Source of the DNA: the human T2T-CHM13v2.0 reference genome, Homo sapiens
Assembly (NCBI RefSeq): GCF_009914755.1
Contig: NC_060933.1
Strand: one strand, 5' to 3'
Length of the DNA stretch: 64,000 bases
Position 1 is the stretch's first letter; each line of letters starts with the position of its first letter. Below are positions 12,601 to 50,110 of this stretch, piece by piece. The position numbers were made by a program, and so were the translations under genes. The notes beneath the pieces were generated by a model. That model saw nothing but the letters and a program-made list of their open reading frames with translations. It searched no databases and was not told the origin of the DNA.

Positions 12601-15600
12601 GGAATGGAATGGAATGGAATCAACGCGAGTGCAGGGGAATGGAATGGAATGGAATGCAATGGAATGGAATCTTCCGGAATTGAATGGAATGGAATGGAAT
12701 GGAATGAAATGCAATGGATTCAACTCGATTGCAATGGAATGGAATAGAATGGAATGGAAAGGAATGGAATGGAATGGAATGGAATTAACCCGAATAGAAT
12801 GGAATGGAATGGAATGGAACGGAATGGAACCGAATGGAATGGAATGGAATGGTATGGAATGGAATGGAATGGTACGGAATAGAATGGAATGGAACGAATT
12901 GTAATGGAATGGAATTGAATGGAATGGAATGGAATCAACGCAAGTGCAGGGGAATGTAATGGAACGGAATGGAATGGAATGGAATCATCCGGAATGGAAT
13001 GGAATGGAATGGAATGCAATGGAATGGAATCAACCCGAGTGCAATGGAATGGAGTGGAATGGAATGGAATGGAATGCAAAAACCCGAATGGAATGGAATG
13101 TAATGGAGAGTAAGGGAGTTGAATAGAATCCATCCGAATGTAATGGAATGGAATGCAAAGGAATGGAATGTAATGTAATGGAATGGAATGGAATGGAATG
13201 GAATGCAATGGAAAGGCATCAACCCGAGTACAATGGAATGGAATGGAATGGAATGGAATGGAATGGAATGCCTTCAAACCGAATGGAATGGAAAGGAAAG
13301 GAATCAACACGAGTGGAATGGAATGGAATGGAATGGAATGGAATGGAATGGAATGATACGGAATAGAATGGAATGGAACGAAATGGAATGGAATGGAATG
13401 GAATGGAATGGAATGGAATGGAATGGAATGGAATCGTTCCGAGTGGAATAGGAGGGAATGTATTCGAGTGGAATGGAAAGGAATGGAATCAACCAGAGTG
13501 GAATGGAAGGGAATGGAATGGAATGGTAACTAATAGAATGGAATCAACCCGAGTGGAATGGAATGGAAAGGACTGGAATGGAATGGAATGGAATGGAATG
13601 GAATGGAATGGAATCAACTCGATTGTAATGGAATGGAATGGAATGGAATGGAATGGAATGGAATTAACCCGAATACAATGGAATGGAATGGAATGGAACG
13701 TAATGGAGTGGAATGGAATGGAATCAACCCGAGTGGAGGGGAATAGAATGGAATGGAATGCAATGGAATCAACTCGATCGCAATGGAATGTAATGGAATG
13801 GAAAGGAATACATTGGAATCAACCCGAGTGGAATGGAATGGAAAGGACTTGAATGGAGTGGAATGGAATGGAATGGAATGGAATCAACTCGATTGGAATG
13901 GAATGGAATGTAATGGAATGGAATGGAATTAACCCGAATAGAATGGAATGGAATGGAATGGAACGGAACGGAACGGAGCGGAACGGAATGGAATGGAATG
14001 GAATGGAATGGAATGGAATGGAATGGAATGGAATGAATTCAACCCGACTGCAGGGGAATGGAATGGAATGGAATGCAATGGAATGCATTCAACTTGAATG
14101 GAGTGGAAAGAATGGAATCAACACGAGTAGAATGGCATGGATTGCAATGGAATGGAATGGAATCAACCCGAGTACAGGGGAATGGAATGGAATGGAATGC
14201 AATGGAATGGAATCATCCGTAATGGAATGGAAAGGAATGGAATGGAATGGAATTAACCCGAATAGAATGGAATGGAACGGAATGGAACGGAATGGAACGG
14301 AATGGAATGGAATGGAATGGAATGGTATGGAAAGGAATGGAATGGTACGGAATAGAATGGAATGGAACGAATTGTAATGGAATGGAATTGAATGGAATGG
14401 AATGGAATGGAATGGAATCAACGCGAGTGCAGGGGAATGTAATGCAACGGAATGCAATGGAATGGAATCATCCGGAATGGAATGGAATGGAATGGAATGG
14501 AATGGAATGCAATGGAATGGAATGGAATCAACCCGAGTGCAATGGAATGGAGTGGAATGGAAGGGAATGGAATGGAACAACCCGAATGGAATGGAATGTA
14601 ATGGAGAGTAAGGGAGTTGAATAGAATCAATCCGAATGTAATGGAATGGAATGCAACGGAATGGAATGGAATGGAATGGAGTGGAATGCAAAGGAATGGA
14701 ATCAACCCGAGTACAATGGAATGGAATGGAATGGAATGGAATGGAATGGAATGGAATGGAATGAAATGGAATGATACGGAATAGAATGGAATGGAACGAA
14801 ATGGAAAGGAATGGAATGGAATGGAATGGAATGGAATGGAATCGTTCCGAGTGGAATAGGAGGGAATGTATTCGAGTGGAATGGAAAGGAATGGAATCAA
14901 CCAGAGTGGAATGGAAGGGAATGGAATGGAATGGAAACTAATAGAATGGAATCAACCCGAGTGGAATGGAATGGAAAGGACTGGAATGGAATGGAATGGA
15001 ATGCAATCAACTCGATTGTAATGGAATGGAATGGAATGGAATGGAATGGAAAGGAATGGAGTGGAATGGAATGGAATCAACCCGAGTGCAGGGGAATGGA
15101 ATGGAATGGAATGCAATGGAATGGAATCATCCGGAATGGAATGGAATGGAATGGAATGCAAAGCAATGGAATCAACTCGATTGCAATGGAATGGAATGGA
15201 TTGGAAAGGAATACATTGGAATCAACCCGACTGGAATGGAATGGAAAGGACTGGAATGGAGTGGAATGGAATGGAATGGAATGGAATGGAATCAACTCGA
15301 TTGGAATGGAATGGAATGGAATGGAATGGAATTAACCCGAATAGAATGGAATGGAATGGAATGGAACGGAACGGAATGTAATGGAATGGAATGGAATGGA
15401 ATGGAATGGAATGGAATGGAATCAACTCGACTGCAGGGGAATGGAATGGAATGGAATGCAATGGAATGGATTCAACTTGAATGGAATGGAAAGAATGGAA
15501 TCAACACGAGTGGAATGGCATGGATTGGAATGGAATGGAATGGAATGAACCCGAGTACAGGGTAATGGAACGGAATGGAATGCAATGGAATGGAATCATC

Positions 15601-29400: not shown

Positions 29401-32400
29401 TCGAATGGAATGGAATGGAATGGAATGGAATCAACCCGAGTGCAATGGAATGGAGAGGAATGGAATGGAAACTACCCGAATGGAATGGAACGTAATGGAG
29501 TGTAAGGGAATTGAATAGAATCAATCCGAATGGAATGGAATGGAATGGAACGGAATGTAATGTAATGGAATGGAATGGAATCAACCCGAGTGCAGGGGAA
29601 TGGAATGGAATGGAATGCAATGGAATGGAATCATCCGGAATGGAATGGAATGGAATGCAATGGAATGGAATGGAATGGAATCAACCCGAGTGCAATGGAA
29701 TGGAGTGAAATGGAACGGAATGGAATGGAGACAACCAGAATGGATTGGAATATAATGGAGTGTAAGGGAATTGAATAGAATCAATCTGAATGTAATGAAA
29801 TGGAATGGAACGGAATGGAATGGAATGGAATGGAATGGAATGGAATGGAATGGAATGCAATGGAATGGAATCAACCCGAGTTCAATCGAATGGAATCGAA
29901 TGGAATGCAACGCAATGGAATGGATTCAACTTGAATGGAATGGAAACAATGGAATCAACACGAGTGGAATGGCATGGATTGGAATGGAATGGAATGGAAT
30001 CAACCCGAGTATAGGGGAATGGAATGGAATGGAATGCAATGGAATGGAATCATCCGTAATGGAATGGAAAGGAATGGAATGGAATGGAATGGAATGGAAT
30101 GGAATGGAATGGAATGGAATGGAATCGTTCCGAGTGGAATAGGAGGGAATGTATTCGAGTGGAATGGAAAAGAGTGGAATCAACCAGAGTGGAATGGAAG
30201 GGAATGGAATGGAATGGAAACTAATAGAATGGAATCAACCCGAGAGGAATGGAACGGAAAGGACTGGAATGGAATGGAATGGAATGGAATCAACTCGATT
30301 GTAATGGAATGGAATGGAATGGAATGGAATGGAATGGAATCAACTCGATTGCAATCGAATGGAATGGAATGTAATTAACCCGAATAGAATGGAATGGAAT
30401 GGAATGGAACGGAACGGAATGGAATGGAATGGAATGGAATGGAATGGAACGGAAAGGGAGGGAATGGAATGGAATAGAATGGAATGGAATGGAATCAACG
30501 CGAGTGCAGGGGAATGGAATGGAATGGAATGCAATGGAATGGAATCTTCCGGAATGGAATGGAATGGAATGGAATGGAATGGAATGGAATCAACCCGAGT
30601 GCAATGGAATGGAGTGGAATGGAATGGAATGGAATGGAACAACCCGAATGGAATGGAATCGAATGGAGAGTAAGGGAGTTTAATAGAATCAATCCGAATG
30701 TAATGGAATGGAATGGAACGGAATGGAATTGAATGGAATGGAATGGAATACAATGGAATGGAAATAACCCGAGTGCAATGGAATGGAGAGGAATGGAATG
30801 GAATGGAATGGAAACTACCCGAATGGAATGGAATGTAATGGAGTGTAAGGGAATTGAATAGAATCAATCCGAATGTAATGGAATGGAATGGAACGGAATG
30901 GAATGGAATGCAATGGAATGGAATGGAATGCAATGGAATGCAATCAACCCAAGTGTAATCGAATGGAATCTAATGGAATGGAATGCAATGGAATGGATTC
31001 AACTTGAATGGAATGGAAAGAATGGAATCAACACGAGTGGAATGGCATGGATTGAAATGGAATGGAATGGAATCAACCCGAGTACAGGGGAATGGAATGG
31101 AATGGAATGCAATGGAATGGAATCATCCGGAATGGAATGGAATGGAATGGAATGCAATGCAATGGAATCAACTCGTTTGCAATGGAATGGATTGAAATGG
31201 AAAGGAATAGAATGGAATCAACCCGAGTGGAATGGAATGGAAAGGACTGGAATGGAGAGGAATGGAATGGAATGGAATGGAATGGAATCAACTCGATTGG
31301 AATGGTATGGAATGGAATGGAATGGAATTAACCCGAATAGAATGGAATGGAATGGAATGGAACGAAAAAGGAATGGAATGGAATGGAATGCAATGGAACG
31401 GAAAGGAATGGAATGGAATGGAATGGAATGGCATGGAATGGAATCAACGCGAGTGCAGGGCAATGGAATGGAATCGAATGGAATGGAATGGAATGGAATG
31501 GAATCAACCCGAATGCAGGGCAATGTAATGGAACTGAATGCAATGGAATGGAATCATCCTGAATGGAATGGAATGGAATGGAATGGAATCAACCTGAGTG
31601 CAATGGAATGGAGTGGAATGGAATGGAATGGAATGGAACAACTCGAATGGAATGTAATGTAATGGAGAGTAAGGGAGTTGAAAAGAATCAATCCGAATGT
31701 AATGGAATGGAATGGAACGGAATGCAATGGAATGGAATGGAATGGGATGGAATGCAATGGAATGGAGTAAATCCGAGTGCAATCGAATGGAATCGAATGG
31801 AATGGAATGCAATGGAATGGATTCAACTTGAATGGAATGGAAAGAATGGAATCAACACGAGTGGAATGGCATGGATTGGAAAGGAAAGGAATGGAATCAA
31901 CACGAGTACGGGGGAATGGAATGGAATGGAATGCAATGGAATGGAATCATCCGGAATGGAATGGAATGGAATGGAATGGAATGGAATGGAATGGTATGGA
32001 ATGGAATGCAATGGAATGGAATCAACGCGAGTGCAGGGGAATGGAATGGAATGGAATGCAATGGAATGGAATCTTCCGGAATGGAATGGAATTGAATGGA
32101 ATGGAATGGAATGGAATGGAATGGAATGCAATGGAATGGAATCAACCCGAGTACAATGGAATGGAATGGAATGGAATGGAATGGAATGGAATGGAATGGA
32201 ATGGAATGGAATGGAATTGAATGGAATGGAATGCCTTCAAACTGAATGGAATGGAAAGGAATGTAATCAACACGAGTGGAATGGAATGGAATGGAATGGA
32301 ATGGAATGGTACGGAATAGAATGGAATGGAACGAAATGGAATGGAATGGAATGGAATGGAATGGAATGGAATGGAATGGAATGGAATGGAATGGAATGGA

Positions 32401-32699
32401 ATCGTTCCGAGTGGAATAGGAGGGAATATTTTCGAGTGAAATGGAAAGGAATGGAATCAACCAGAGTGGAATGGAAGGGAATGGAATGGAATGGAAACTA
32501 ATAGAATGGAATCGACCCGAGTGGAATGGAATGGAAAGGACTGGAATGGAATGGAATGGAATGGAATGGAATGGAATGGAATGGAATGGAATCAACTCCA
32601 TTGTAATGGAATGGAATGGAATGGAAAGGAATGGAATGGAATGCAATGGAATTAACCCGAATAAAATGAAAAGGAATGGAATGGAACGGAATGCAAAGC

Positions 32700-32727
32700 A
32701 ATGGAATCAACTCGGGTTGATTCCATT
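32700..32727. other. Strand-switch (inversion) breakpoint within the satellite
   Basis: Seen: aatggaatcaac-tcgg-gttgattccatt; 12-bp perfect inverted arms (32700-32711, 32716-32727) around tcgg. Satellite polarity flips here and at no other point I could see. Confidence 0.95.
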
Positions 32728-34443
32728 CCCTTCTTTCCATTCCATTCCATTCCATTCCATTCCTTTCCATTCCATTCCATTGCCTTGCATTCCACTCGGG
32801 TTGATTCCATTCCCTTCTTTCCACTTCATTACATTCCCTTCCATTCCACTCGGAATGATTGATTCCATTCCATTCCATTCCATTTCATTCCATTGCAATC
32901 CATTCCAATCCATTCCATTCCACTGCATTCCACTCGAGTTGACTTCATTCCATTCCTTTCCATTCCATTTCATTCCTTTCCACTCGAGTTGATTCCATTC
33001 CATTCCAATCCATTGCATTCCATTCCATGCCATTCCACTCGGGTTGATTCCATGCCTTTGCATTCCATTCCATTCCATTCCATTGCATTCCATTCCATTC
33101 CATTCCGTTGCATTCCATTAAATTACATTCGGATTGATTCTATTCAACTCCCTTACTCTCCATTACATTCCATTCCATTCGGGTTGTTCCATTCCATTCC
33201 ATTCCATTCCACTCCATTCCATTGCACTCGGGTTGATTCCATTCCATTCCATTCCATTCCATTCCATTCCATTCCGGATGATTCCATTCCATTGCATTCC
33301 GTTCCATTACATTCCCCTGCACTCGCGTTGATTCCATTCCATTCCATTCCATTCCATTCAATTCCATTCCATTACAATTCGTTCCATTCCATTCTATTCC
33401 GTACCACTCCATTCCATTCCATACCATTCCATTCCATTCCATTCCATTCCATTCCATTCCATTCCGTTCCATTCCGTTCCATTCCGTTCCATTCCATTCT
33501 ATTCCATTCTATTCGGGTTAATTCCTTTCCATTCCATTCCATCCCATTCTATTACATTCCATTGCAATCAAGTTGAATCCATTGCATTTCATTCCATTCC
33601 ATTCCATTCCATTCCATTCCGGAAGATTGCATTCCATTGCATTCCATTCCATTCCATTCGCCTGCACTCGCGTTGATTCCATTCCATTCCATTCCATTCC
33701 ATTCCATTCCATTCCGTTCCGTTCCGTTCCATTCCATTCCATTCCATTCCATTCCATTCCATTCTATTCGGGTTAATTCCATTCCATTCCATTCGATTGC
33801 AATCGTGTTGATTCCATTCCATTCCATTCCATTCCAATCCATTCCTTTCCATTCCATTACGGATGATTCCATTCCATTGCATTCCATTCCATTCCATTCC
33901 CCTGTACTCGGGTTGATTCCATTCCATTGCATTCCAATCCATGCCCTTCCACTCGTGTTGATTCCATTCTTTCCATTCCATTTAAGTTGAATCCATTCCA
34001 TTGCATTCCATTCCATTCGATGCCATTCGATTGCACTCGGGTTGATTCCATTCCATTGCATTCCATTCCGTTCCATTCCATTCCATTCCATTCCGTTCCG
34101 TTCCATTCCATTCCATTACATTCGGATTGATTCTATTCAATTCCCTTACACTCCATTACATTCCATTCCATTCGGGTAGTTTCCATTCCATTCCATTCCA
34201 TTCCTCTCCATTCCATTGCACTCGGGTTGATTCCATTCCATTGCATTCCATTCCATTCCATTCAATTCCATTCCGTTCCATTCCATTCCATTACATTCGG
34301 ATTGATTCTATTCAACTCCCTTACTCTCCATTACATTCCTTTCCGTTCGGGTTGTTCCATTCCATTCCATTCCATTCCACTCCATTCCATTGCACTCGGG
34401 TTTATTCCATTCCATTCCATTCCATTCCATTCCATTCCATTCC

Positions 34444-34458
34444 ATTCCGGAAGATTCC
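34444..34458. promoter_or_regulatory. Perfect canonical heat-shock element motif (nTTCnnGAAnnTTCn); first of at least 21 in the right arm
   Basis: Seen: aTTCc-gGAAg-aTTCc. Other starts: 36317, 37737, 38806, 40276, 41505, 42965, 44143, 45786, 46500, 47083, 49974, 50813, 51688, 54098, 55250, 56978, 58572, 60059, 61129, 62996. Binding is inferred. Confidence 0.55.
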
Positions 34459-37400
34459 ATTCCATTGCATTCCATTCCATTCCATTCCCCTGCACTCGCG
34501 TTGATTCCTTTCCATTCCATTCTATTCCATTCCATTCCATTCCATTCCATTCCATTCTTTCCGTTCCATTCCATTCCATTCCATTCCATTCCATTCCGTT
34601 CCGTTCCGTTCCATTCCATTCCATTCCATTCCATTATATTCGGGTTAATTCCATTCCATTCCATTCGATTGCAATCGAGATGATTCCATTCCATTCCATT
34701 CCATTCCATTCCATTCCATTCCATTCCATTCCATTCCATTCCATTCCATTGCACACGGGTTCATTCCATTCCATTCCATTCCATTCCATTCCATTTCATT
34801 CCATTCCATTCTATTCCGTATCATTCCATTCCATCCCATTCCATTCCGTTCCATTCCATGCCATTACACTCGGGTTGATTCCATTCCTTTCCATTCCATT
34901 CTTGTTGAATCCATTCCATTCCATTCCATTCCATTCGAATCCATTCCATTGCACTTGGGTTGATTCCATTCCATTCCATTCCATTCCATTTCATTCCATT
35001 CCATTCCATTACATTCGGATTGATTCTATTCAATTCCCTTACACTCCATTACATTCCATTCCATTCGGGATGTTTCCATTCCATTCCATTCCATTCCACT
35101 CCATTCCATTGCATCAGGTTGATTGCATTCCATTCCATTCCATTCCATTCCGGATGATTCCATTCCATTGCATTCCATTCCATTCCATTCCCCTGCACTC
35201 GGGTTTATTCCATTCCATTCCATTCCATTCCATTCCATTCCATTCCATTCCATTCCATTCCATTCCTTTCCATTCCATTCCATTCCATTCTATTCCGGTT
35301 AATTCCATTCCATTCCTTTCCATTCCATTCCATTCCATTCCATTCCATTGCAATCGAGTTGATTCCATTCCATTCCATTCCATTCCGTTCCGGATGATTC
35401 CATTCCATTCCATTCCATTCCATTCCATTCCATTCCGTTCCATTCCATTCCATTCCATTCTATTCGGGTTAATTCCATTCCATTCCATTCCATTCCATTC
35501 CATTCCATTCCAATGGAGTTGATTCCATTCCATTCCATTCCATTCCATTCCACTCCATTCCACTCCTTTCCATTCCATTACACTCGGGTTGATTCCATTC
35601 TATTACTTTCCATTCCATTCCATTCCATTGCAATCGAGTTGATTCCATTGCTTTGCATTCCATTCCATTCCATTCCATTCCGGACGATTACATTCGATTG
35701 CATTCCATTCCATTCCATTCCCCTGCACTCGGGTTGATTCCATTCCATTCCACTCCATTCCGTTCCATTCCATTCCATTCCATTGTATTCGGGTTAATTC
35801 CATTCCATTCCATTCCATTCCATTCCATTCCATTACAATCGAGTTGATTCCTTTCCATTCAATTCCATTCCATTCCATTCCATTCCAGTCCTTTCCATTC
35901 CATTCCACTCGGGTTGATTCCATTCTATTAGTTTCCATTCCATTCCATTCCCTTCCATTCCACTCTGGTTGATTCCATTTCTTTCCATTCCACTCGAATA
36001 CATTCCCTCCTATTCCACTCGGAACGATTCCATTCCATTCTATTCCATTCCATTCCATTCCATTCCATTCCATTCCATTCCATTCCAGTTCGTTCCATTC
36101 CATTCTATTCCGTACCATTCCATTCCATTCCATTCCTTTCCATTCCATTCCTTTCCACTCGTGTTGATTCCATTCCTTTCCATTCCATTCGGTTTGAAGG
36201 CATTCCATTCCATTCAATTCCATTCAATTCCATTCAATTACATTCCATTCTATTCCATTCCATTGCAATCGAGTTGAATCCATTGCCTTTCATTCCATTC
36301 CATTCCATTCCATTCCATTCCGGAAGATTCCATTCCATTCCATTCCATTCCATTCCATTCCCCTGAACTCGCGTTGATTCCATTCCATTCCATTCCATTC
36401 CATTCCATTCCGTTCCGTTCCATTCCATTCCATTCCATTCCATTCCATTCCGTTACGTTCCATTCCATCCCATTCCATTCTATTCGGGTTAATTCCATTC
36501 CATTCCATTCGATTGCCATCGAGTTGATTCCATTCCATTCCATTCCATTCCATTCCATTCCATTCCTTTCCATTCCATTACGGATGACTCCATTCCATTG
36601 CTTTCCATTCCATTCCATTCCCCTGTACTCGGGTTGATTCCATTCCATTCCATTCCACTCCATTCTGTTCCGTTGCATTCCATTCTTTTGCATTCCATTC
36701 TATTCGGGTTAATTCCATTCCATTCTATTCCATTCCATTCCATTCCATTGCAATGGAGTTGATTCCATTCCATTCCATTCCATTCCGGATGATTCCATTC
36801 CATTGCATTCCATTCCATTCCATTCCCCTGCACTCGTGTTGATTCCATTCCCTTCCATTCCATTCCATTCCGTTCCATTCCATTCCATTCCATTCTATTC
36901 CGGTTAATTCCATTCCATTCCATTCCATTCCATTCCATTCCATTCCATTGCAATCGAGTTGATTCCATTCCATTCCTTTCCATTCCATTCCATTGCCTTG
37001 CATTCCACTCGTGTTGATTCCATTCCCTTCTTTCCACTCCATTACATTCCCTTCCATGATTGATTCCATTCTATTCCATTCCAATTCATTCCATTGCAAT
37101 CCATTCCAATACATTCCATTGCATTCCATTCCACTCGAGTTGACTTCAGTCCATTCCTTTCCATTCTTTTCCATTCCTTTCCACTCGAGTTGATTCCATT
37201 CCTTTGCATTCCATTCCATTCCATTCCATTCCATTCCATTCCATTCCATTCCATTCCTTTGCATTCCATTCCATTACATTCGGATTGATTCTATTCAACT
37301 CCCTTACTCTCCATTACATTCCATTCCATTCGGGTTGTTCCATTCCATTCCATTCCATTCCACTCCATTCCATTGCACTCGGGTTGATTCCATTCCATTC

Positions 37401-40400
37401 CATTCCATTCCATTCCATTCTATTCCGGATGATTCCATTCCATTGCATTCCGTTCCATTACATTCCCCTGCACTCGCGTTGATTCCATTCCATTCCATTC
37501 CTTTCCATTCAATTCCATTCCATTACAATTCGTTCCATTCCATTCTATTCCGTACCATTCCATTCCATTCCATACCATTCCATTCCATTCCATTCCATTC
37601 CATTCCATTCCGTTCCATTCCGTTCCATTCCATTCCATTCCATTCTATTCGGGTTAATCCCATTCCATTCCATTCTATTCCATTCCATTGCAATCGAGTT
37701 GAATCCACTGCATTTCATTCCATTCCATTCCATTCCATTCCGGAAGATTCCATTCCAATGCATTCCATTCCATGCCATTCCCCTGCACTCGCGTTGATTC
37801 AACTCGGGTTGATTTCATTCCATTGCATTCCATTCCATTCCATTCCATTCCATTCCATTCCATTCCGTTCCATTCCATTCCATTACATTCGGATTGATTC
37901 TATTCAATTCCCTTACACTCCATTACATTCCATTCAATTCTGGTAGTTTCCATTCCATTCCATTCCATTCCTCTCCATTCCATTGCACTCGGGTTGATTC
38001 CATTCCATTGCATTCCATTCCATTCCATTCCATTCCACTCCGTTCCATTCCATTCCATTACATTCGGATTGACTCTATTCAACTCCCTTACTCTCCATTA
38101 CATTCCATTCCATTCGGCTTGTTCCATTCCATTCCATTCCATTCCATTCCACTCCATTCCATTGCACTCGGATTTATTCCATTCCATTCCATTCCATTCC
38201 ATTCCATTCCGGATGATTCCTTTCCATTGCATTCCATTCCATTCCATTCCCCTGCACCCGCGTTGATTCCATTCCATTCCATTCCATTCCATTCCATTCC
38301 ATTCCATTCCATTCCTTTCCGTTCCATTACAATCGAGTTGATTCCTTTCCATTCAATTCCATTCCATTCCATTCCATTCCAGTCCTTTCCATTCCATTCC
38401 ACTCGGGTTGATTCCATTCTATTAGTTTCCATTCCATTCCATTCCCTTCCATTCCACTCTGGTTGATTCCATTTCTTTCCATTCCACTCGAATACATTCC
38501 CTCCTATTCCACTCGGAACGATTCCATTCCATTCTATTCCATTCCATTCCATTCCATTCCATTCCATTCCATTCCAGTTCGTTCCATTCCATTCTATTCC
38601 GTACCATTCCATTCCATTCCATTCCTTTCCATTCCATTCCTTTCCACTCGTGTTGATTCCATTCCTTTCCATTCCATTCGGTTTGAAGGCATTCCATTCC
38701 ATTCAATTCCATTCAATTCCATTCAATTACATTCCATTCTATTCCATTCCATTGCAATCGAGTTGAATCCATTGCCTTTCATTCCATTCCATTCCATTCC
38801 ATTCCATTCCGGAAGATTCCATTCCATTACATTCCATTCCATTCCATTCCCCTGCACTCGCGTTGATTCCATTCCATTCCATTCCATTCCATTCCGTTCC
38901 GTTCCATTCCATTCCATTCCATTCCATTGCATTCCGTTCCGTTCCATTCCATCCCATTCCATTCTATTCGGGTTAATTCCATTCCATTCCATTCGATTGC
39001 CATCGAGTTGATTCCATTCCATTCCATTCCATTCCATTCCATTCCATTCCTTTCCATTCCATTACGGATGACTCCATTCCATTGCTTTCCATTCCATTCC
39101 ATTCCCCTGTACTCGGGTTGATTCCATTCCATTCCATTCCACTCCATTCGGTTCCGTTGCATTCCATTCTATTGCATTCCATTCTATTCGGGTTAATTCC
39201 ATTCCATTCTATTCCATTCCATTCCATTCCATTGCAATGGAGTTGATTCCATTCCATTCCATTCCATTCCGGATGATTCCATTCCATTGCATTCCATTCC
39301 ATTCCATTCCCCTTCACTCGTGTTGATTCCATTCCCTTCCATTCCATTCCATTCCGTTCCATTCCATTCCATTCCATTCTATTCCGGTTAATTCCATTCC
39401 ATTCCATTCCATTCCATTCCATTCCATTCCATTGCAATCGAGTTGATTCCATTCCATTCCTTTCCATTCCATTCCATTGCCTTGCATTCCACTCGTGTTG
39501 ATTCCATTCCCTTCTTTCCACTCCATTACATTCCCTTCCATGATTGATTCCATTCTATTCCATTCCAATTCATTCCATTGCAATCCATTCCAATACATTC
39601 CATTGCATTCCATTCCACACGAGTTGACTTCATTCCATTCCTTTCCATTCTTTTCCATTCCTTTCCACTCGAGTTGATTCCATTCCATTCCAATCCATTG
39701 CATTCCATTCCATGCCATTCCACTCGGGTTGATTCCATTCCTTTGCATTCCATTCCATTCCATTCCATTCCATTCCATTCCATTCCTTTGCATTCCATTC
39801 CATTACATTCGGATTGATTCTATTCAACTCCCTTACTCTCCATTACATTCCATTCCATTCGGGTTGTTCCATTCCATTCCATTCCATTCCACTCCATTCC
39901 ATTGCACTCGGGTTGATTCCATTCCATTCCATTCCATTCCATTCCATTCCATTCCATTCCATTCCGGATGATTCCATTCCATTGCATTCCGTTCCATTAC
40001 ATTCCCCTGCACTCGCGTTGATTCCATTCCATTCCATTCCTTTCCATTCAATTCCATTCCATTACAATTCGTTCCATTCCATTCTATTCCGTACCATTCC
40101 ATTCCATTCCATACCACTCCATTCCATTCCATTCCATTCCATTCCATTCCGTTCCATTCCGTTCCATTCCATTCCATTCCATTCTATTCGGGTTAATCCC
40201 ATTCCATTCCATTCTATTCCATTCCATTGCAATCGAGTTGAATCCACTGCATTTCATTCCATTCCATTCCATTCCATTCCGGAAGATTCCATTCCAATGC
40301 ATTCCATTCCATGCCATTCCCCTGCACTCGCGTTGATTCAACTCGGGTTGATTTCATTCCATTGCATTCCATTCCATTCCATTCCATTCCATTCCATTCC

Positions 40401-40874
40401 ATTCCATTCCGTTCCATTCCATTCCATTACATTCGGATTGATTCTATTCAATTCCCTTACACTCCATTACATTCCATTCAATTCTGGTAGTTTCCATTCC
40501 ATTACATTCCATTCCTCTCCATTCCATTGCACTCGGGTTGATTCCATTCCATTGCATTCCATTCCATTCCATTCCATTCCACTCCGTTCCATTCCATTCC
40601 ATTACATTCGGATTGACTCTATTCAACTCCCTTACTCTCCATTACATTCCATTCCATTCGGCTTGTTCCGTTCCATTCCATTCCATTCCATTCCACTCCA
40701 TTCCATTGCACTCGGGTTTATTCCATTCCATTCCATTCCATTCCATTCCATTCCGGATGATTCCTTTCCATTGCATTCCATTCCATTCCATTCCCCTGCA
40801 CCCGCGTTGATTCCATTCCATTCCATTCCATTCCATTCCATTCCATTCCATTCCTTTCCATTCCATTCCATTCC

Positions 40875-40914
40875 GTTCCGTTCCGTTCCGTTCCGTTCCG
40901 TTCCGTTCCGTTCC
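40875..40914 (-). repeat. (GGAAC)8 secondary microsatellite (GTTCC on +)
   Basis: Eight consecutive GTTCC units. Confidence 0.9.
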
Positions 40915-43563
40915 ATTCCATTCCATTCCATTCTATTCGGGTTAATTCCAATCCATTCCATTCGATTGCAATCGAGTTGATTCCATTCCATTCCATTCCA
41001 TTCCATTCCTTTCCGTTCCATTACAATCGAGTTGATTCCTTTCCATTCAATTCCATTCCATTCCATTGCATTCCAGTCCTTTCCATTCCATTCCACTCGG
41101 GTTGATTCCATTCTATTAGTTTCCATTCCATTCCATTCCCTTCCATTCCACTCTGGTTGATTCCATTTCTTTCCATTCCACTCGAATACATTCCCTCCTA
41201 TTCCACTCGGAACGATTCCATTCCATTCTATTCCATTCCATTCCATTCCATTCCATTCCATTCCATTCCATTCCAGTTCGTTCCATTCCATTCTATTCCG
41301 AACCATTCCATTCCATTCCATTCCTTTCCATTCCATTCCTTTCCACTCGTGTTGATTCCATTCCTTTCCATTCCATTCGGTTTGAAGGCATTCCATTCCA
41401 TTCAATTCCATTCAATTCCATTCAATTACATTCCATTCTATTCCATTCCATTGCAATCGAGTTGAATCCATTGCCTTTCATTCCATTCCATTCCATTCCA
41501 TTCCATTCCGGAAGATTCCATTCCATTACATTCCATTCCATTCCATTCCCCTGCACTCGCGTTGATTCCATTCCATTCCATTCCATTCCATTCCGTTCCG
41601 TTCCATTCCATTCCATTCCATTCCATTCCATTCCGTTCCGTTCCATTCCATCCCATTCCATTCTATTCGGGTTAATTCCATTCCATTCCATTCGATTGCC
41701 ATCGAGTTGATTCCATTCCATTCCATTCCATTCCATTTCATTCCATTCCTTTCCATTCCATTACGGATGACTCCATTCCATTGCTTTCCATTCCATTCCA
41801 TTCCCCTGTACTCGGGTTGATTCCATTCCATTCCATTCCACTCCATTCGGTTCCGTTGCATTCCATTCTATTGCATTCCATTCTATTCGGGTTAATTCCA
41901 TTCCATTCTATTCCATTCCATTCCATTCCATTGCAATGGAGTTGATTCCATTCCATTCCATTCCATTCCGGATGATTCCATTCCATTGCATTCCATTCCA
42001 TTCCATTCCCCTGCACTCGTGTTGATTCCATTCCCTTCCATTCCATTCCATTCCGTTCCATTCCATTCCATTCCATTCTATTCCGGTTAATTCCATTCCA
42101 TTCCATTCCATTCCATTCCATTCCATTCCATTGCAATCGAGTTGATTCCATTCCATTCCTTTCCATTCCATTCCATTGCCTTGCATTCCACTCGTGTTGA
42201 TTCCATTCCCTTCTTTCCACTCCATTACATTCCCTTCCATGATTGATTCCATTCTATTCCATTCCAATTCATTCCATTGCAATCCATTCCAATACATTCC
42301 ATTGCATTCCTTTCCACACGAGTTGACTTCATTCCATTCCTTTCCATTCTTTTCCATTCCTTTCCACTCGAGTTGATTCCATTCCATTCCAATCCATTGC
42401 ATTCCATTCCATGCCATTCCACTCGGGTTGATTCCATTCCTTTGCATTCCATTCCATTCCATTCCATTCCATTCCATTCCATTCCTTTGCATTCCATTCC
42501 ATTACATTCGGATTGATTCTATTCAACTCCCTTACTCTCCATTACATTCCATTCCATTCGGGTTGTTCCATTCCATTCCATTCCATTAAACTCCATTCCA
42601 TTGCACTCGGGTTGATTCCATTCCATTCCATTCCATTCCATTCCATTCCATTCCGGATGATTCCATTCCATTGCATTCCGTTCCATTACATTCCCCTGCA
42701 CTCGCGTTGATTCCATTCCATTCCATTCCTTTCCATTCAATTCCATTCCATTACAATTCGTTCCATTCCATTCTATTCCGTACCATTCCATTCCATTGCA
42801 TACCACTCCATTCCATTCCATTCCATTCCATTCCATTCCGTTCCATTCCGTTCCATTCCATTCCATTCCATTCTATTCGGGTTAATCCCATTCCATTCCA
42901 TTCTATTCCATTCCATTGCAATCGAGTTGAATCCACTGCATTTCATTCCATTCCATTCCATTCCATTCCGGAAGATTCCATTCCAATGCATTCCATTCCA
43001 TGCCATTCCCCTGCACTCGCGTTGATTCAACTCGGGTTGATTTCATTCCATTGCATTCCATTCCATTCCATTCCATTCCATTCCATTCCATTCCGTTCCA
43101 TTCCATTCCATTACATTCGGATTGATTCTATTCAATTCCCTTACACTCCATTACATTCCATTCAATTCTGGTAGTTTCCATTCCATTCCATTCCATTCCT
43201 CTCCATTCCATTGCACTCGGGTTGATTCCATTCCATTGCATTCCATTCCATTCCATTCCATTCCACTCCGTTCCATTCCATTCCATTACATTCGGATTGA
43301 CTCTATTCAACTCCCTTACTCTCCATTACATTCCATTCCACTCGGCTTGTTCCATTCCATTCCATTCCATTCCATTCCACTCCATTCCATTGCACTCGGG
43401 TTTATTCCATTCCATTCCATTCCATTCCATTCCATTCCGGATGATTCCTTTCCATTGCATTCCATTCCATTCCATTCCCCTCCACTCGCGTTGATTCCAT
43501 TCCATTCCATTCCATTCCATTCCATTCCATTCCATTCCATTCCTTTCCATTCCATTCCATTCC

Positions 43564-43613
43564 GTTCCGTTCCGTTCCGTTCCGTTCCGTTCCGTTCCGT
43601 TCCGTTCCGTTCC
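43564..43613 (-). repeat. (GGAAC)10 secondary microsatellite (GTTCC on +)
   Basis: Ten consecutive GTTCC units; paralogous to the 8-unit run at 40875. Confidence 0.9.
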
Positions 43614-46600
43614 ATTCCTTTCCATTCCATTCTATTCGGGTTAATTCCAATCCATTCCATTCGATTGCAATCGAGTTGATTCCATTCCATTCCATTCCAT
43701 TCCATTCCTTTCCATTCCATTACGGATGATTCCATTCCATTGCATTCCATTCCATTCCATTCCCCTGTACTCGGGTTGATTCCATTCCATTCCATTCCAA
43801 TCCATGCCATTCCACTCGTGTTGATACCATTCTTTCCATTCCATTCAAGTTGAATCCATTCCATTGCATTCCCTTCCATTCCATTCCCCTGCAGTCGGGT
43901 TGATTCCATTCCATTCCATTGCATTCCATTCCATTCCGTTCCGTTCCGTTCCATTCCATTCCATTCCATTCTATTCGGGTTAATTCCATTCCATTCCATT
44001 CCATTCCATTCCATTCCATTCCATTCCAATCGAGTTGATTCCATTCCATTCCATTCCATTCCATTCCACTCCATTCCAGTCCTTTCCATTCCATTCCACT
44101 CGGGTTGATTCCAATGTATTCCTTTCCATTCCATTCCATTCCATTCCGGAAGATTCCATTCCATTGCATTCCATTCCATTCCATTCCCCTGCACTCGTGT
44201 TGATTCCATTCCATTCCATTCCATTCCATTCCATTCCAATCCATTCCATTCCATTCCGTTCCGTTCCATTCCATTCCATTCCATTCTATTCGGGTTAATT
44301 CCATTCCATTCCATTCGATTGCAATCGAGTTGATTCCATTCCATTCTATTCCATTCCATTCCATTCCATTACGGATGATTCCATTCCATTGCATTCCATT
44401 CCATTCCATTCCCCTGTACTCGGGTTGATTCCATTCCATTCCATTCCAATCCATGCCATTCCACTCGTGTTGATTCCATTCTTTCCATTCCATTCAAGTT
44501 GAATCCATTCCATTGCATTCCATTCCATTCCATTACCCTGCAGTCGGGTTGATTCCATTCCATTCCCTTCCATTCCATTCCATTCCGTTCCGTTCCATTC
44601 CATTCCATTCCATTCTATTCGGGTTAATTCCATTCCATTCCATTCCATTCCATTCCATTCCAATCGAGTTGATTCCATTCCATTCCATTCCATTCCATTC
44701 CACTCCATTCCAGTCCTTTCCATTCCATTCCACTCGCGTTGATTCCAATGTATTCCTTTCCATTCCATTCCATTCCATTGCAATCGAGTTGATTCCATTG
44801 CTTTGCATTCAATTCCTTTCCATTCCATTCCGGGTGATTCCATTCCATTGCATTCCATTCCATTCCATTCCCCTGCACTCGGGTTGATTGCATTCCATTC
44901 CACTCCATTCCGTTCCATTCCATTCCATTCCATTGTATTCGGGTTAATTCCACTCCATTGCATTCCATTCCATTCCATTCCATTCCATTCCATTACAATC
45001 GAGTTGATTCCATTCCATTCCATTCCATTCCAGTCCTTTCCATTCCATTCCACTCGGGTTGATTCCATTCTATTAGTTTCCATTCCATTCCATTCCCTTC
45101 CATTCCACTCTGGTTGATACCATTCCTTTCCATTCCACTCGAACACATTCTCTCCTATTCCACTCGGAACGATTCCATTCCATTCCATTCCATTCCATTC
45201 CATTCCATTCCATTCCATTCCTTTCCATTCCATTGTACTCGGGTTGATTCAATTCCATTGCATTCCATTCCATTCCATTCCATTCCATTCAGTTGCATTC
45301 CATTCCATTACATTCGGATTGATTCTATTCAACTCCCTTACTCTCCATTACATTCCACTCCATTCGGGTTGTTCCATTCCATTCCATTCCATTCCACTCC
45401 ATTCCATTGCACTCGGGGTGATTCCATTCCATTCCATTCCATTCCATTCCATTCCATTCCATTCCATTCCATTCTGGATGATTCCATTCCATTGCATTCC
45501 GTTCCATTACATTCCCCTGCACTCGCGTTGATTCCATTCCATTCCATTCAATTCCATTCCATTACAATTCGTTCCATTCCATTCTATTCCGTACCATTCC
45601 ATTCCATTCCATACCATTCCATTCCATTCCATTCCATTCCATTCCGTTCCATTCCGTTCCATTCCATTCCATTGCATTCTATTCGGATTAATTCCATTCC
45701 ATTCCATTCCATTCCATTCTATTCCATTCCATTGCAATCGAGTTGAATCCATTGCATTTCATTCCATTCCATTCCATTCCATTCCATTCCGGAAGATTCC
45801 ATTCCATTGCATTCCATTCCATTCCATTCCCCTGCACTCGCGTTGATTCCATTCCATTCCATTCCATTCCATTCCATTCCGTTCCGTTCCATTCTATTCC
45901 ATTCCATTCCATTCCATTCCGTTCCATTCCATTCCATTCCATTCTATTCGGGTTAATTCCATTCCATTCCATTCGATTGCAATCGAGTTGATTCCATTCC
46001 ATTCCATTCCATTCAATTCCATTCCATTCCATTCCTTTCGATTCCATTACGGATGATTCCATTCCATTGCATTCCATTCCATTCCATTCACCTGTACTCG
46101 GGTTGATTCCATTCCATTCCATTCCAATCCATGCCATTCCACTCGTGTTGATTCCATTCTTTCCATTCCATTCAAGTTGAATCCATTCCATTGCATTCCA
46201 TTCCATTCGATTCCATTCGATTGCACTCGGGTTGATTCCATTCCATTGCATTCCATTCCATTCCATTCCATTCCATTCCATTCCATTCCATTCCGTTCCA
46301 TTCCATTCCATTACATTCGGATTGATTCTATTCAATTCCCTTACACTCCATTACTTTCCATTCCATTAGGGTAGTTTCCATTCCATTCCATTCCATTCCT
46401 CTCTATTCCATTGAACTCGGGTTGATTCCATTCCATTGCATTCCATTCCATTCCATTCCATTCCTTTCCGTTCCATTCCATTCCATTCCATTCCATTCCA
46501 TTCCGGAAGATTCCATTCCATTGCATTCCATTCCATTCCATTCCCCTGCACTCGCGTTGATTCCATTCCATTCCATTCTATTACATTCCATTCCCTTCCT

Positions 46601-49600
46601 TTCCGTTCCATTCCATTCCATTCCATTCCATTCCATTCCGTTCCGTTCCATTCGATTCCATTCCATTCCATTCCATTCCATTCCATTCCATTACGGATTA
46701 TTCCATTCCACTGCATTCCATTCCATTCCATTCCCCTGTACTCGGGTTGATTCCATTCCATTCCATTCCAATCCATACCATTCCACTCGTGTTGATTCCA
46801 TTCTTTCCATTCCATTCAAGTTGAATCCATTCCATTGCATTCCATTCCATTCGAATCCATTCGATTGCACTCGGGTTGATTCCATCCCATTGCATTCCAT
46901 TCCATTCCATTCTATTCCGTTCCATTCCATTCCATTACATTCGGATTGATTCTATTCAACTCCCTTACTCTCCATTACATTCCATTCCATTCGAGTTGTT
47001 CCATTCCATTCCATTCCATTCCATTCCACTCCATTCCATTGCACTCGGGTTGATTCCATTCCATTCCATTCCATTCCATTCCATTCCGGAAGATTCCATT
47101 CCATTGAATTCCATTCCATTCCATTACCCTGCACTCGCGTTGATTCCATTCCATTCCATTCTATTACATTCCATTCCCTTCTTTTCCGTTCCATTCCATT
47201 CCATTCCATTCCATTCCATTCCGTTCCGTTCCATTCCATTCCATTCCATTCCATTCTGTTCCGTTCCATTCCATTCCATTCCATTCTATACGGGTTAATT
47301 CCATTCCATTCCATTCGATTGCAATCGAGTTGATTCCATTCCATTCCATTCCATTCCATTCCATTCCATTCCTTTCCATTCCATTCCACACGGGTTGATT
47401 CCATTGTATTGCTTTCCATTCCATTCCATTCCATTTCAATCCATTCCATTGCACTCGGGTTGATTCCATTCCATTCCATTCCATTGCATTCCATTCCATT
47501 CCATTCCGGATGATTCCATTCCATTGCATTCCATTCCATTCCATTCCCCTGCACTCGGGTTGATTCCATTCCATTCCATTCCATTACATTCCGTTCCATT
47601 CCATTCCATTCCATTCGGATTGATTCTATTCAATTCCCATACACTCCATTACATTCCATTCCATTCGGGTAGTTTCCATTCCATTCCATTCCATTCCTCT
47701 CCATTCCATTGCACTCGGGTTGATTCCATTCCATTCCATTCCATTCCATTCCATTCCATTACATTCCATTCCATTCCGTTCCATTGTACTCGGGTTGATT
47801 CCATTCCATTGCATTCCATTCCATTCCATTCCATTCCATTCCATTCCATTGCATTCCATTCCGTTCCATTCCATTACATTCGGATTGATTCTATTCAACT
47901 CCCTTACTCTCCATTACATTCCATCCCATTCGGGTTGTTCCATTCCATTCCATTCCATTCCACTCCATTCCATTGCGCTCGGGTTGATTCCATTCCATTC
48001 CATTCCATTCCATTCCATTCCATTCCATTCCGGATGATTCCATTCCATTGCATTCCGTTCGATTACATTCCCCGGCATTCGGGTTGATTCCATTCCATTC
48101 CATTCCATTCCATTCCATTCCATTCCATTCCATTCCATTCCAATTCTTTCCATTCCATTCTATTCCGTACCATTCCATTCCATTCTATACAATTCCATTC
48201 CATTCCATTCCACTCCGTTCCGTTCCGTTCCGTTCTGTTCCGTTCCATTCCATTCCATTCTATTCGGTTTAATTCCATTCCATTCCATTCCATTGCATTC
48301 CATTCTATTCCATTCCATTGCAATCGAGTTGAATCCAATGCATTCCATTCCATTCTATTCCATTCCATTCCATTCAATTCCATAAGATTCCATTCCATTG
48401 CATTCCATTCCATTCCATTCCATTCCATTCCATTCCATTCCAGTCCATTCCATTGTACTCGGGTTGATTCCATTCCATTGCATTCCGTTCCATTCCATTC
48501 CATTCCATTCCATTCCGTTCCATTCCATTCCATTACATTCGGATTGATTCTTTTCAACTCCCTTACTGTCCACTACATTCCATTCCATTCGGGTTGTTCC
48601 ATTCCATTCCTTTCCTTTCCACTCCATTGCATTGCACTCGGGTTGATTCCATTCCATTCCATTCCATTCCATTCCGGATGATTCCATTCCATTGCATTCC
48701 GTTCCATTACGTTCCCCTGCACTCGGGTTGATTCCATTCCATTCCTTTCCATTCCATTCGATTCCATTCCATTCCCCTGTACTCGCGTTGATTCCATTCC
48801 ATTCCATTCCGTTCCATTCCATTCCATTCCATTCCTTTCCGTTCCATTCCATTCCACTCCATTCCATTCCGTTCCGTTCCATTCCATTCCATTCCATTCT
48901 ATTCGGGTTAATTCCATGCCATTCCATTCGATTGCAATCGAGTTGATTCCATTCCATTCCATTCCATTCCATTCCATTCCAGTCCTTTCCATTCCTTGCC
49001 ATTCCATTACGGATGATTCCATTCCATTGCATTCCATTCCATTCCATTCCCCTGTACTCGGGTTGATTCCATTCCATTCCATTCCAATCCATGCCATTCC
49101 ACTGGTTTTGATTCCATTCTTTCCTTTCCATTCAAGTTGAATCCATTGCATTGCATTCCATTCCATTTGATTCCATTCGATTGCACTCGGGTTGATTCCA
49201 TTCCATTGCATTCCATTCCATTCCATTCCATTCCCTTCCATTCCACTCTGGTTGATTCCATTCCTTTCCATTCCACTTGAATACTTTCCCTCCTATTCCA
49301 CTCGGAACGATTCCATTCCATTCCATTCCATTCCATTCCATTCCATTCCATTCCATTTCGTTCCATTCCATTCTATTCCATATCATTCCATTCCATTCCA
49401 TTCCATTCCATTCCATTCCATTCCATTCCATTGTACTCGGGTTGATTCCATTCCATTGCATTCCATTCCATTCCATTCCATTCCACTCCGTTGCATTCCA
49501 TTCCATTACATTCGGATTGATTCTATTCAACTCCCTTACTCTCAATTATATTCCATTCCATTGGGGTTGTTCCATTCCATTCCATTCCATTCCACTCCAT

Positions 49601-50110
49601 TCCATTGCACTCGGGTTGATTCCATTCCATTCCATTCCATTCCATTCCATTCCGGATGATTCCATTCCATTGCATTCCGTTCCATTACATTCCCCTGCAC
49701 TCGCGTTGATTCCATTCCATTCCATTCCATTCCATTCAATTCCATTCCATTACAATTCGTTCCATTCCATTCTATTCCGTACCATTCCATTCCATTCCAT
49801 ACCATTCCATTCCATTCCGTTCCATTCCATTCCGTTCCATTCCGTTCCATTCCATTCCATTCCATTCTATTCGGATTAATTCCATTCCATTCCATTCCAT
49901 TCCATTCTATTCCATTCCATTGCAATCGAGTTGAATCCATTGCATTTCATTCCATTCCATTCCATTCCTTTCCATTCCGGAAGATTCCATTCCATTACAT
50001 TCCATTCCATTCCATTCCCCTGCACTCGCATTGATTCCATTCCATTCCATTCCATTCCATTCCGTTCCATTCCATTCCATTCCATTCCATTCCATTCCAT
50101 TCCGTTCCGT

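What the first reader, a model, noticed from the sequence alone, without database searches (positions are those of the whole stretch)
32700..32727. Strand-switch breakpoint joined through 5-bp microhomology between two landmark decamers, leaving a tight hairpin
Seen: elsewhere the left context continues aaagcaatggaatcaACTCGattgc (e.g. 7611-7635), and the right context is preceded by gcattccACTCGggttg (e.g. 32787-32803). The only exact shared bases are ACTCG (32710-32714; 7 of 8 if extended to tc[a/c]actcg). The product is a 12-bp-arm inverted repeat with a 4-nt centre. Inference: pure GGAAT has no homology to its own reverse complement, so the quasi-palindromic CAAC-NCG-AGT landmark is one of the few places a strand switch can anneal, and HSat3 inversion breakpoints should be enriched at this motif. 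Established: inversions occur in HSat3 arrays (many in the chr9 array of T2T assemblies), so the event class is known; the base-level rule is the testable part.
Basis: partly seen in the sequence, partly recalled or inferred. Interest (0 to 1): 0.8.

Follow-up and report, generated by a model that had tools for sequence, protein, structure and literature searches.

The report
Multi-copy inversion junction in chr9 HSat3
This is a real flip in the direction of the chromosome 9 satellite repeat, joined through five shared bases, but it is one of about fifty inherited copies of one old junction rather than a unique event.

Summary
The window has one GGAAT-to-ATTCC strand switch, at 32710-32714, inside an exact 12-bp-arm, 4-nt-loop inverted repeat. 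Random opposite-strand joins in this array reach 5 bp of microhomology about 1 time in 1000.

The junction is not a single event. The 28-mer occurs 42 times exactly, plus 10 times with one mismatch, only in the chr9 HSat3 array and on both strands. Sampled copies share flanking sequence. A near-identical twin lies at chr9:52.549 Mb, within the published CHM13 9qh+ duplication.

I catalogued 206 strand switches in the array. Five sequence classes account for 192 of them.

The hairpin is a by-product: 22% of random joins give stems of 12 bp or more. The proposed decamer rule is not established. Landmarks cover 19% of the array, and 9-10 of 22 independent junction classes touch one against 32-37% expected (not significant). 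Within the main chr9 array it is 7 of 11 (p = 0.03-0.07).

HSat3 inversions on chr9 are already published; the founder-junction structure is the new detail.

The parts
1..32714 (+). Left arm: HSat3 block in GGAAT orientation. On the chromosome it runs about 79.6 kb back to a divergent D1 junction at chr9:61,209,102.
   Evidence: 65 of 65 bins GGAAT-only; position of the nearest D1 junction.
32693..32714 (+). Retained end of the left parent, GCAAAGCAATGGAATCAACTCG. Intact copies continue ATTGCAATGG.
   Evidence: 8 of 8; at least 31 of 37.
32710..32714 (.). ACTCG, the 5-bp microhomology shared by both parental contexts. This is the breakpoint interval.
   Evidence: Chance of 5 bp or more is about 0.001.
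32700..32727 (.). Junction inverted repeat: 12-bp arms AATGGAATCAAC / GTTGATTCCATT with loop TCGG. This 28-mer marks the C1 junction family.
   Evidence: 42 exact copies genome-wide, all on chr9.
32715..32738 (-). Retained start of the right parent, GGTTGATTCCATTCCCTTCTTTCC. Intact copies are preceded by ...CATTCCACTCG.
   Evidence: 5 of 6; 8 of 10.
32715..64000 (-). Right arm: HSat3 block in ATTCC orientation. It runs about 200.5 kb on to a divergent D2 junction at chr9:61,489,201.
   Evidence: 62 of 62 bins ATTCC-only.
32787..32822 (-). Intact copy of the right-parent motif with its normal upstream context, 84 bp (motif starts 32715 and 32799) downstream of the junction. It is present only in the 'type a' right-arm haplotype.
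7609..7635 (+). Example of an intact left-parent motif (GCAAAGCAATGGAATCAACTCGATTGC).

Best explanation
The hairpin at 32700-32727 is one copy of a founder inversion junction, here called C1, in the chromosome 9 HSat3 array.

Origin. The junction formed once. A GGAAT-strand end finishing in ...GGAATCAACTCG was joined to an opposite-orientation landmark, ...CATTCC-ACTCG-GGTTGATTCC..., through the shared ACTCG. This is microhomology-mediated joining. I favour a replicative template switch of a nascent end onto a same-sense CGAGT site roughly 1-3 kb away. Polymerase-theta-type end joining of a break is the near-equal alternative.

Spread. The junction was then carried passively as blocks of the array were duplicated, in both orientations, giving 52-53 copies. 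The most recent step was the multi-megabase 9qh+ duplication of CHM13.

Function. The 12-bp hairpin is a by-product of the join and has no demonstrated function.

Shown: the strand switch, the parental contexts, the 5-bp microhomology without inserted bases, the copy number, the shared flanks, and the duplicated junction order.

Inferred: the single origin, the enzymology of the join, and neutrality.
For: 1. Microhomology. Both parental contexts were recovered from intact motif copies and share ACTCG (8 of 8 and 5 of 6; at least 31 of 37 and 8 of 10). Random +/- joins reach 5 bp or more with P about 0.001. No unexplained bases lie at the junction.

2. Copy number. The 28-mer occurs 42 times (15 forward, 27 reverse; reversed-pattern control 0), all at chr9 51.07-75.68 Mb. 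Another 10 copies have one mismatch and one candidate has two. The 66-mer 32680-32745 is 100% identical at 31 places and 98% at 9, among 40 of 160 candidates scored.

3. Common descent. All 10 sampled copies match the window exactly for 32-659 bp to the left and 25-1500 bp to the right. Left arms stay at 83-95% identity for about 750 bp, against a background of 69-81% (left-arm controls; one 250-bp bin at 88). Within subfamilies both arms are 90-97% identical over 1.4 kb. The five one-mismatch variants each occur exactly twice, 8.7-10.6 Mb apart.

4. Co-amplification. The order and spacing of junctions recur to the base between 52.3-54.6 Mb and 61.0-63.4 Mb: 21,432; 17,811; 18,453; 25,842; 17,894; 27,519 and 44,424 bp. 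A D1-C1 unit of 12,681 bp occurs three times. The twin at 52,549,243 differs from the window by 2 mismatches and 2 GGAAT-unit indels in 10 kb.

5. Published support. Nurk et al. 2022 describe a recent multi-megabase tandem HSat3 duplication on chr9 of CHM13 (passages). The correlation of switch number with array length (r = 0.90, passages of bioRxiv 10.64898/2026.07.22.740206) is what passenger junctions predict.

6. Few classes. C1 (53), C2 (28), C4 (20), D1 (80) and D2 (11) make up 192 of 206 catalogued switches.
Against: - The parents are inferred from paralogous motif copies, not observed. If any k-mer in the array is allowed as a parent, 34% of random joins show an apparent overlap of 5 bp or more, so the microhomology claim rests on the extended-context argument.
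- No reciprocal junction was identified. Neither D1 nor D2 has the sequence a simple two-break inversion of the C1 parents predicts (my reading). Template switch and end joining therefore cannot be separated.
- Between subfamilies the right arm diverges after only 25-50 bp. I attribute this to later exchange inside a pure (ATTCC)n run, but that is an assumption.
- Only 10 of about 53 copies were examined beyond the 66-mer.
- At least 21 further switches in the array were not found.
- No reads and no other human or ape assembly could be examined.
Confidence: 0.75

Rival explanations
1. Recurrent hotspot, the reader's rule: the same junction formed many times independently, because the quasi-palindromic landmark is one of the few places where opposite strands can anneal.
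For: ACTCG/CGAGT makes up 6.8% of 5-mer annealing opportunities. A second class, C2, reads AATGGAATGCACTCGGGTTGATTCCATT, only 2 bases from C1. All five amplified chr9 classes have at least one arm broken in or at the edge of a landmark.
Against: All 52 copies carry the same specific left and right contexts, although those contexts are a small minority of ACTCG and CGAGT sites: 37 and 10 copies per 191 kb, against 153 and 383 ACTCG/CGAGT sites per 64 kb. Flank homology extends for hundreds of bp. Variants occur in duplicated pairs, and junction spacings repeat to the base.
Confidence: 0.06
2. Fold-back origin: a resected or nascent end snapped back on itself at the short inverted repeat, primed synthesis and made an inverted duplication. 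The arm symmetry was later erased by array turnover.
For: The spacer is tight, a 4-nt loop with 12-bp arms. D2 (13-bp arms with a 4-nt loop, read from the match strings) and D3 (about 18-bp arms with a 3-nt spacer, read) look similar. Parental motifs lie 1.3-3 kb apart in normal array.
Against: Symmetry stops at 12 bp. Left arm against reverse-complemented right arm share only scattered 70-440-bp stretches, at unrelated distances from the junction. The 12 bp is explained by both parents carrying GGAATCAAC. 22% of random joins give such stems.
Confidence: 0.13
3. Blunt or NHEJ two-break inversion in which the ACTCG overlap is coincidental.
For: Other classes have only 2-bp overlaps (D1 has CC, C4 has GG), and 14% of random joins reach 2 bp or more.
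Against: P is about 0.001 for 5 bp or more with the contexts supported.
Confidence: 0.04
4. Assembly artefact: a false join of two HSat3 contigs in opposite orientation.
For: The region is a near-perfect twin of another locus. The chr9 array needed two traversals of a graph loop (Nurk 2022, passages).
Against: The same junction sequence occurs at 52 places with diverged flanks. More than 200 inversion breakpoints are reported across the chr9 HSat3B5 array and the beta-satellite arrays, and about 129 switches per haplotype on chr9 (passages).
Confidence: 0.02

Closest known systems
Inversion breakpoints (strand switches) of the chr9 HSat3B5 array in T2T-CHM13. Sources: Altemose et al., bioRxiv 10.1101/2021.07.12.452052, passages seen; Nurk et al. 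2022, 'mosaic inversion structure', passages seen.
   Same: Same object class and same array. Altemose reports over 200 inversion breakpoints across the chr9 HSat3B5 array and the beta-satellite arrays together. My catalogue finds 206, and at least 227 by the alternation rule.
   Different: The passages I saw count switches but do not give junction sequences, classes or microhomology. Here one class of 52-53 copies is resolved to the base and shown to be inherited rather than independent.
Population surveys of CEN09 HSat3 strand switches. Sources: bioRxiv 10.64898/2026.07.22.740206, passages seen; PMC13684623, passages seen.
   Same: They report hundreds of switches, or about 129 per haplotype, and a switch number that correlates with array length (r = 0.90).
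   Different: The first preprint reads the switches as randomly distributed stochastic by-products of expansion. Here 192 of 206 fall in five sequence classes whose order and spacing are copied, so they are passengers of block duplication.
Microhomology-mediated rearrangement junctions (MMEJ/alt-EJ; FoSTeS/MMBIR). This comparison is from my own knowledge, not from a call.
   Same: 2-5 bp overlaps (C1 5, D2 4-5, C2 up to 4, D1 2, C4 2), no long homology, and no inserted bases in the main classes.
   Different: The event lies inside a 5-bp satellite, so parents can only be inferred from paralogous motif copies. The product was afterwards amplified about 50-fold.
Fold-back inversions and palindromic inverted duplications. 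This comparison is from my own knowledge, not from a call.
   Same: A short spacer between inverted arms at the junction.
   Different: The arms are complementary for only 12 bp, with no mirror-image flanks.

Membership tests
HSat3 intra-array strand switch (chr9 9q12 array) | Abrupt change from GGAAT-rich to ATTCC-rich sequence within continuous HSat3. | tested here: met
   65 of 65 bins before and 62 of 62 bins after the mixed bin 32501-33000 (junction at 32710-32714) are single-orientation.
HSat3 intra-array strand switch (chr9 9q12 array) | Location inside the large chr9 array. | tested here: met
   One search places the window at C9:61,256,001-61,320,000. All 42 exact copies lie at C9 51.07-75.68 Mb.
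HSat3 intra-array strand switch (chr9 9q12 array) | Subfamily HSat3B5, by subfamily-specific k-mers. | not tested
   No subfamily k-mer library was available. The B5 label comes from passages of Altemose et al..
Microhomology-mediated junction (MMEJ / MMBIR) | A short identity, about 2-20 bp, present at the end of both parental sequences and kept once in the product. | tested here: met
   ACTCG is shared by both contexts. P about 0.001 by chance.
Microhomology-mediated junction (MMEJ / MMBIR) | No long homology between the joined partners. | tested here: met
   only scattered short inverted matches between the arms; the two orientations share few long words.
Microhomology-mediated junction (MMEJ / MMBIR) | The true parental alleles are known. 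| tested here: inconclusive
   Parents were inferred from paralogous motif copies only. No pre-inversion haplotype was available.
Fold-back / palindromic inverted duplication | Arms are mirror images well beyond the junction. | tested here: not met
   complementarity ends at 12 bp, with no collinear inverted match.
NAHR inversion between inverted repeats | The breakpoint is embedded in long, highly identical inverted segments. | tested here: not met
   plus the base-resolved switch at a 5-bp overlap.
Single-origin, amplified junction family | Copies share flanks beyond what the join itself requires, and their order and spacing are duplicated. | tested here: met
   Flanks were examined for 10 of about 53 copies.
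Assembly artefact | No long reads span the join. | not testable with these tools
   No read data were available.

The most novel reading that the evidence does not exclude
Strand switching in HSat3 preferentially breaks inside the CpG-bearing landmark motifs. All five amplified chr9 classes have at least one arm broken in or at the edge of a landmark, and so do 7 of 11 main-array classes against 32-37% expected. Landmarks would then be fragile or annealing sites. In addition, the roughly five founder junction words would form a lineage barcode from which the history of 9qh expansion, including 9qh+ heteromorphisms, can be reconstructed across human haplotypes.
Probability: 0.25. Interest if true: 0.55.

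Novelty: new member of a known kind. Interest (0 to 1): 0.4.

Why it matters
Strand switches in the chr9 HSat3 array are published as counts. This work shows that most of them are copies of a handful of founder junctions.

- Breakpoint statistics must be computed on junction classes, not on occurrences.
- The finding gives a mechanical reason why switch number tracks array length.
- It yields array-specific words that could anchor reads, tell the two 9qh+ duplicates apart, and trace array expansion in pangenomes. The C1 28-mer, for example, has 42 exact hits, all in this array.
- The clean 5-bp overlap is one well-supported case of microhomology-mediated joining inside a simple satellite.
- From my own knowledge, not from a call: 9q12 HSat3 is the main source of stress-induced SatIII RNA. 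A mosaic orientation means that the GGAAU-sense strand is read in both chromosomal directions.

Tried and rejected
I used pattern searches instead. The listings were cut at 100 of 742 and 100 of 592 lines, so junction classes on contigs after C9 for those two patterns were not seen.
- blastn of left against right half: timed out. I replaced it with a rare-40-mer diagonal analysis.
- Automated k-mer parse of breakpoints: rejected as a measure of microhomology and of landmark membership. It lets rare variant words act as parents, and random joins then show an overlap of 5 bp or more in 34% of cases and 8 bp or more in 15%. By this parse 13 of 22 classes had an arm in a landmark, against a null of 0.486 (p = 0.22).
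- Reciprocal partner of C1: the junction predicted from the C1 parents matches neither D1 nor D2 (my reading).
- Fold-back palindrome: looked for and not found.
- Missing junctions: at least 21 are implied by same-type neighbours.
- Literature: the junction 12-mer gave one unrelated primer hit. 'HSat3' with 'microhomology' gave 10 papers and 'HSat3' with 'strand switch' gave 5. None describes junction sequences, judging by titles, abstracts or the passages read.

Full report
OBSERVATION

The window is chr9:61,256,001-61,320,000 of T2T-CHM13 (hub note). It is HSat3 throughout.

- In 500-bp bins, 65 of 65 bins up to 32,500 hold 44-68 GGAAT and 0-1 ATTCC. One bin is mixed (25 against 28). The remaining 62 of 62 hold 43-65 ATTCC and 0-1 GGAAT. 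There is exactly one strand switch.
- At the switch the sequence reads AATGGAATCAAC-TCGG-GTTGATTCCATT (32700-32727). This is an exact 12-bp inverted repeat with a 4-nt centre. Ungapped complementarity collapses beyond 12 bp.

PARENTAL CONTEXTS AND MICROHOMOLOGY

I recovered the parents from intact copies of the specific flanking motifs, not from the generic decamer.

- Left parent: GCAAAGCAATGGAATC occurs 8 more times in the oriented window, and 8 of 8 continue AACTCGATTGCAAT. In a 191-kb oriented reference (window plus 14 fetched chr9 stretches) at least 31 of 37 continue AACTCGATTGCAATG.
- Right parent: GGTTGATTCCATTCCCTTCTTTCC is preceded by ...CATTCCACTCG in 5 of 6 copies and 8 of 10.
- The two parents share ACTCG (32710-32714), or 7 of 8 as TCAACTCG against TCCACTCG. 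No extra bases lie at the join.
- In 5000 simulated random joins of a + position to a - position of this array, with parents known, microhomology of 2 bp or more occurred in 13.9%, 3 bp or more in 2.3%, and 5 bp or more in 0.1%. The overlap is therefore far above chance.
- Caveat: if any word of the array is allowed as a parent, 34% of random joins show an apparent overlap of 5 bp or more. The argument depends on the extended contexts.

THE HAIRPIN

As single-stranded DNA it folds at -11.7 kcal/mol, z = -5.2 against shuffles. However, 22% of the random +/- joins give a perfect stem of 12 bp or more, because GGAAT and ATTCC runs are complementary by construction. Here the stem exists because both parents carry GGAATCAAC. 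I treat it as a by-product.

THE JUNCTION IS A FAMILY

- The 28-mer occurs 42 times in the genome (15 forward, 27 reverse; reversed-pattern control 0), all on chr9 between 51.07 and 75.68 Mb.
- Allowing mismatches adds 10 copies with one mismatch and one candidate with two. The total of 123 matches at two mismatches or fewer is consistent with 42 exact sites, their 42 opposite-strand images, 10 variants, 28 sites of a second class and that one candidate (100 of 123 lines were listed).
- The 66-mer 32680-32745 is 100% identical at 31 places and 98% at 9, among 40 of 160 candidates scored.
- The five one-mismatch variants each occur exactly twice, 8.7-10.6 Mb apart.

FLANKS

I compared 10 of the roughly 53 copies with the window.

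- The copy at 52,549,243 differs by 2 substitutions and two GGAAT-unit indels (5 and 10 bp) over 10 kb.
- For the other nine, exact identity runs 32-167 bp to the left and 25-159 bp to the right. The left arm stays at 83-95% for about 750 bp and then falls to the background of 69-81% (left-arm controls; one 250-bp bin at 88).
- The right arm comes in two haplotypes that part inside a pure (ATTCC)n run 25-50 bp from the junction. Type a comprises the window, L004 and L009. Type b comprises L001, L002, L003, L005, L007, L008 and L028. L006 differs again.
- Within type b both arms are 90-97% identical over 1.4 kb.
- This pattern fits one origin followed by block duplication and occasional unequal exchange. 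Recurrent formation would have to pick the same two rare contexts every time.

ARRAY-WIDE PICTURE

Pattern searches of the genome gave the following classes.

Convergent (GGAAT to ATTCC):
- C1: 53 copies.
- C2, AATCAACCCGAGTG|CATTCC...: 28.
- C4, GGAACGGAATGG|GTTTATTCC: 20.
- C5: 1.
- Ten minor sites.

Divergent (ATTCC to GGAAT):
- D1, ATTCCATTGCACACGGAATGGAAT: 80.
- D2, ATTCCATTACGGAATGGAAT: 11.
- D3: 2.
- One further site.

All fetched candidates are true switches. The total is 206 (112 convergent, 94 divergent). Twenty-one pairs of same-type neighbours show that at least 21 more exist. Five classes account for 192 of the 206.

Junction order and spacing at 52.3-54.6 Mb recur to the base at 61.0-63.4 Mb (21,432; 17,811; 18,453; 25,842; 17,894; 27,519; 44,424 bp). 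A 12,681-bp D1-C1 unit occurs three times.

Local context of this copy: the window's copy sits 79.6 kb after a D1 and 200.5 kb before a D2. Its twin sits 84.6 and 199.3 kb from the same classes.

LITERATURE

What I saw was passages only, in every case.
- Altemose et al. (bioRxiv 10.1101/2021.07.12.452052) report that the chr9 HSat3B5 array and the beta-satellite arrays contain over 200 inversion breakpoints.
- Nurk et al. 2022 (PMC9186530) describe a recent multi-megabase tandem HSat3 duplication on chr9 of CHM13 (9qh+) and a mosaic inversion structure in HSat arrays.
- A 2026 preprint (10.64898/2026.07.22.740206) finds hundreds of switches in CEN09 HSat3. Their number correlates with array length (r = 0.90), and the authors read them as randomly distributed stochastic by-products.
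- Another preprint (PMC13684623) gives about 129 switches per haplotype.
- Searches for the junction word, for HSat3 with microhomology, and for HSat3 with strand switch found no description of junction sequences.

THE PROPOSED RULE

I defined landmarks as the 10 bp around any CG that is not of the plain GGAACGGAAT kind. They cover 19% of the oriented window, one per 57 bp. A random breakpoint is inside one with P = 0.17, or touching one with P = 0.21. At least one of two arms does so with P = 0.32-0.37.

I classified 22 junction classes by hand. This is my reading and is open to bias.

- In or at the edge of a landmark (9): C1 (both arms), C2 (edge), C4, C5, chr9:63.83 Mb, D1, D2, chr1, chr2 (edge).
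- Ambiguous (1): the chr7 convergent junction.
- Not at a landmark (12): C3; chr9:56.04, 75.37 and 48.71; the chr7 divergent junction; chr17 (3-4 nt past the decamer); chr14; chr9:76.54, 76.55 and 76.57; chr10; D3.

That is 9-10 of 22 (p = 0.12-0.44). Within the main chr9 array it is 7 of 11 (p = 0.03-0.07). The chr9:75.37 class shares its right arm with C2 and is not independent.

Several classes join in pure repeat at short palindromes (GAATTC twice, CCATGG, GGAATCCATTCC). A model that weights sites by shared 5-mers puts 62% of opportunities with at least one partner in a landmark and 20% with both. The rule is neither shown nor excluded, and the number of independent events is small.

MECHANISM

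- Shown: a clean 5-bp overlap, no long homology, no mirror-image arms, overlaps of 2-5 bp in the other main classes, and passive amplification.
- Inferred: a single microhomology-mediated join. I favour a replicative template switch, in which a nascent ...ACTCG-3' end pairs with CGAGT on a same-sense strand 1-3 kb away. Those are the distances at which the two parental motifs lie in normal array. End joining of a two-break inversion is nearly as likely. I could not identify a reciprocal junction, so the two are not separated.

VERDICT

The junction is real and the base-level description is correct. The event class is already published. The new content is that this junction is the commonest convergent class of a small set of founder junctions that make up most strand switches of the array. 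The generalisation to a decamer rule is unproven.

Noticed in passing
L011 (chr9:61,489,201) and L012 (chr9:61,508,315); paralogues at 52,748,575 and 52,767,684: D2 and the pure-repeat convergent junction C3 bound a 19.1-kb inverted segment. Both carry the same stretch of about 45 nt, (ATTCC)n TTTCCATTCCATTACGGA. This looks like a short direct duplication flanking an inversion, as staggered breaks or template switching would leave.
   Followed up: partly
window, for example 7629-7636; 107 copies in the oriented 64 kb: The perfect 8-bp palindrome ATTGCAAT directly follows CAACTCG in the left-parent motif. It is the most abundant self-complementary word of 8 bp or more in the array, and the C1 break lies exactly at its 5' edge.
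   Followed up: partly
window 1-32714: Repeated rare 40-mers show preferred offsets of about 2320, 1260 and 9500 bp. This suggests a loose higher-order periodicity in this HSat3 block.
   Followed up: no
chr9 52.3-60.8 Mb against 61.0-71.4 Mb (outside the window): The two copies of the 9qh+ duplication are offset by about 8.7-8.8 Mb up to about 54.6 Mb, and by about 10.6 Mb from 54.78 Mb onward. About 1.8 Mb (63.43-65.18 Mb) is therefore present in only one copy or was rearranged.
   Followed up: no
chr9:57,614,465 and 68,236,272 (L032): Divergent junction D3 is a near-palindrome, with ACTCGGGTTGATTCCAT facing ATGGAATCAACCCGAGT across a 3-nt spacer. It is centred on CCATGG in pure repeat between two landmarks.
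   Followed up: partly
chr9:54,611,547/54,779,505; 65,183,050/65,359,178; 72,185,109/72,321,662: Pairs of C1 copies in opposite orientation (minus then plus) lie 137-176 kb apart, with no catalogued divergent junction between them. An uncharacterised divergent class, possibly the centre of a large palindrome, must lie there.
   Followed up: no
window 32715 and 32799: The right-parent motif occurs twice, 84 bp apart, but only in the type a right arm (window, L004, L009). Type b copies have a different sequence from about +50.
   Followed up: partly
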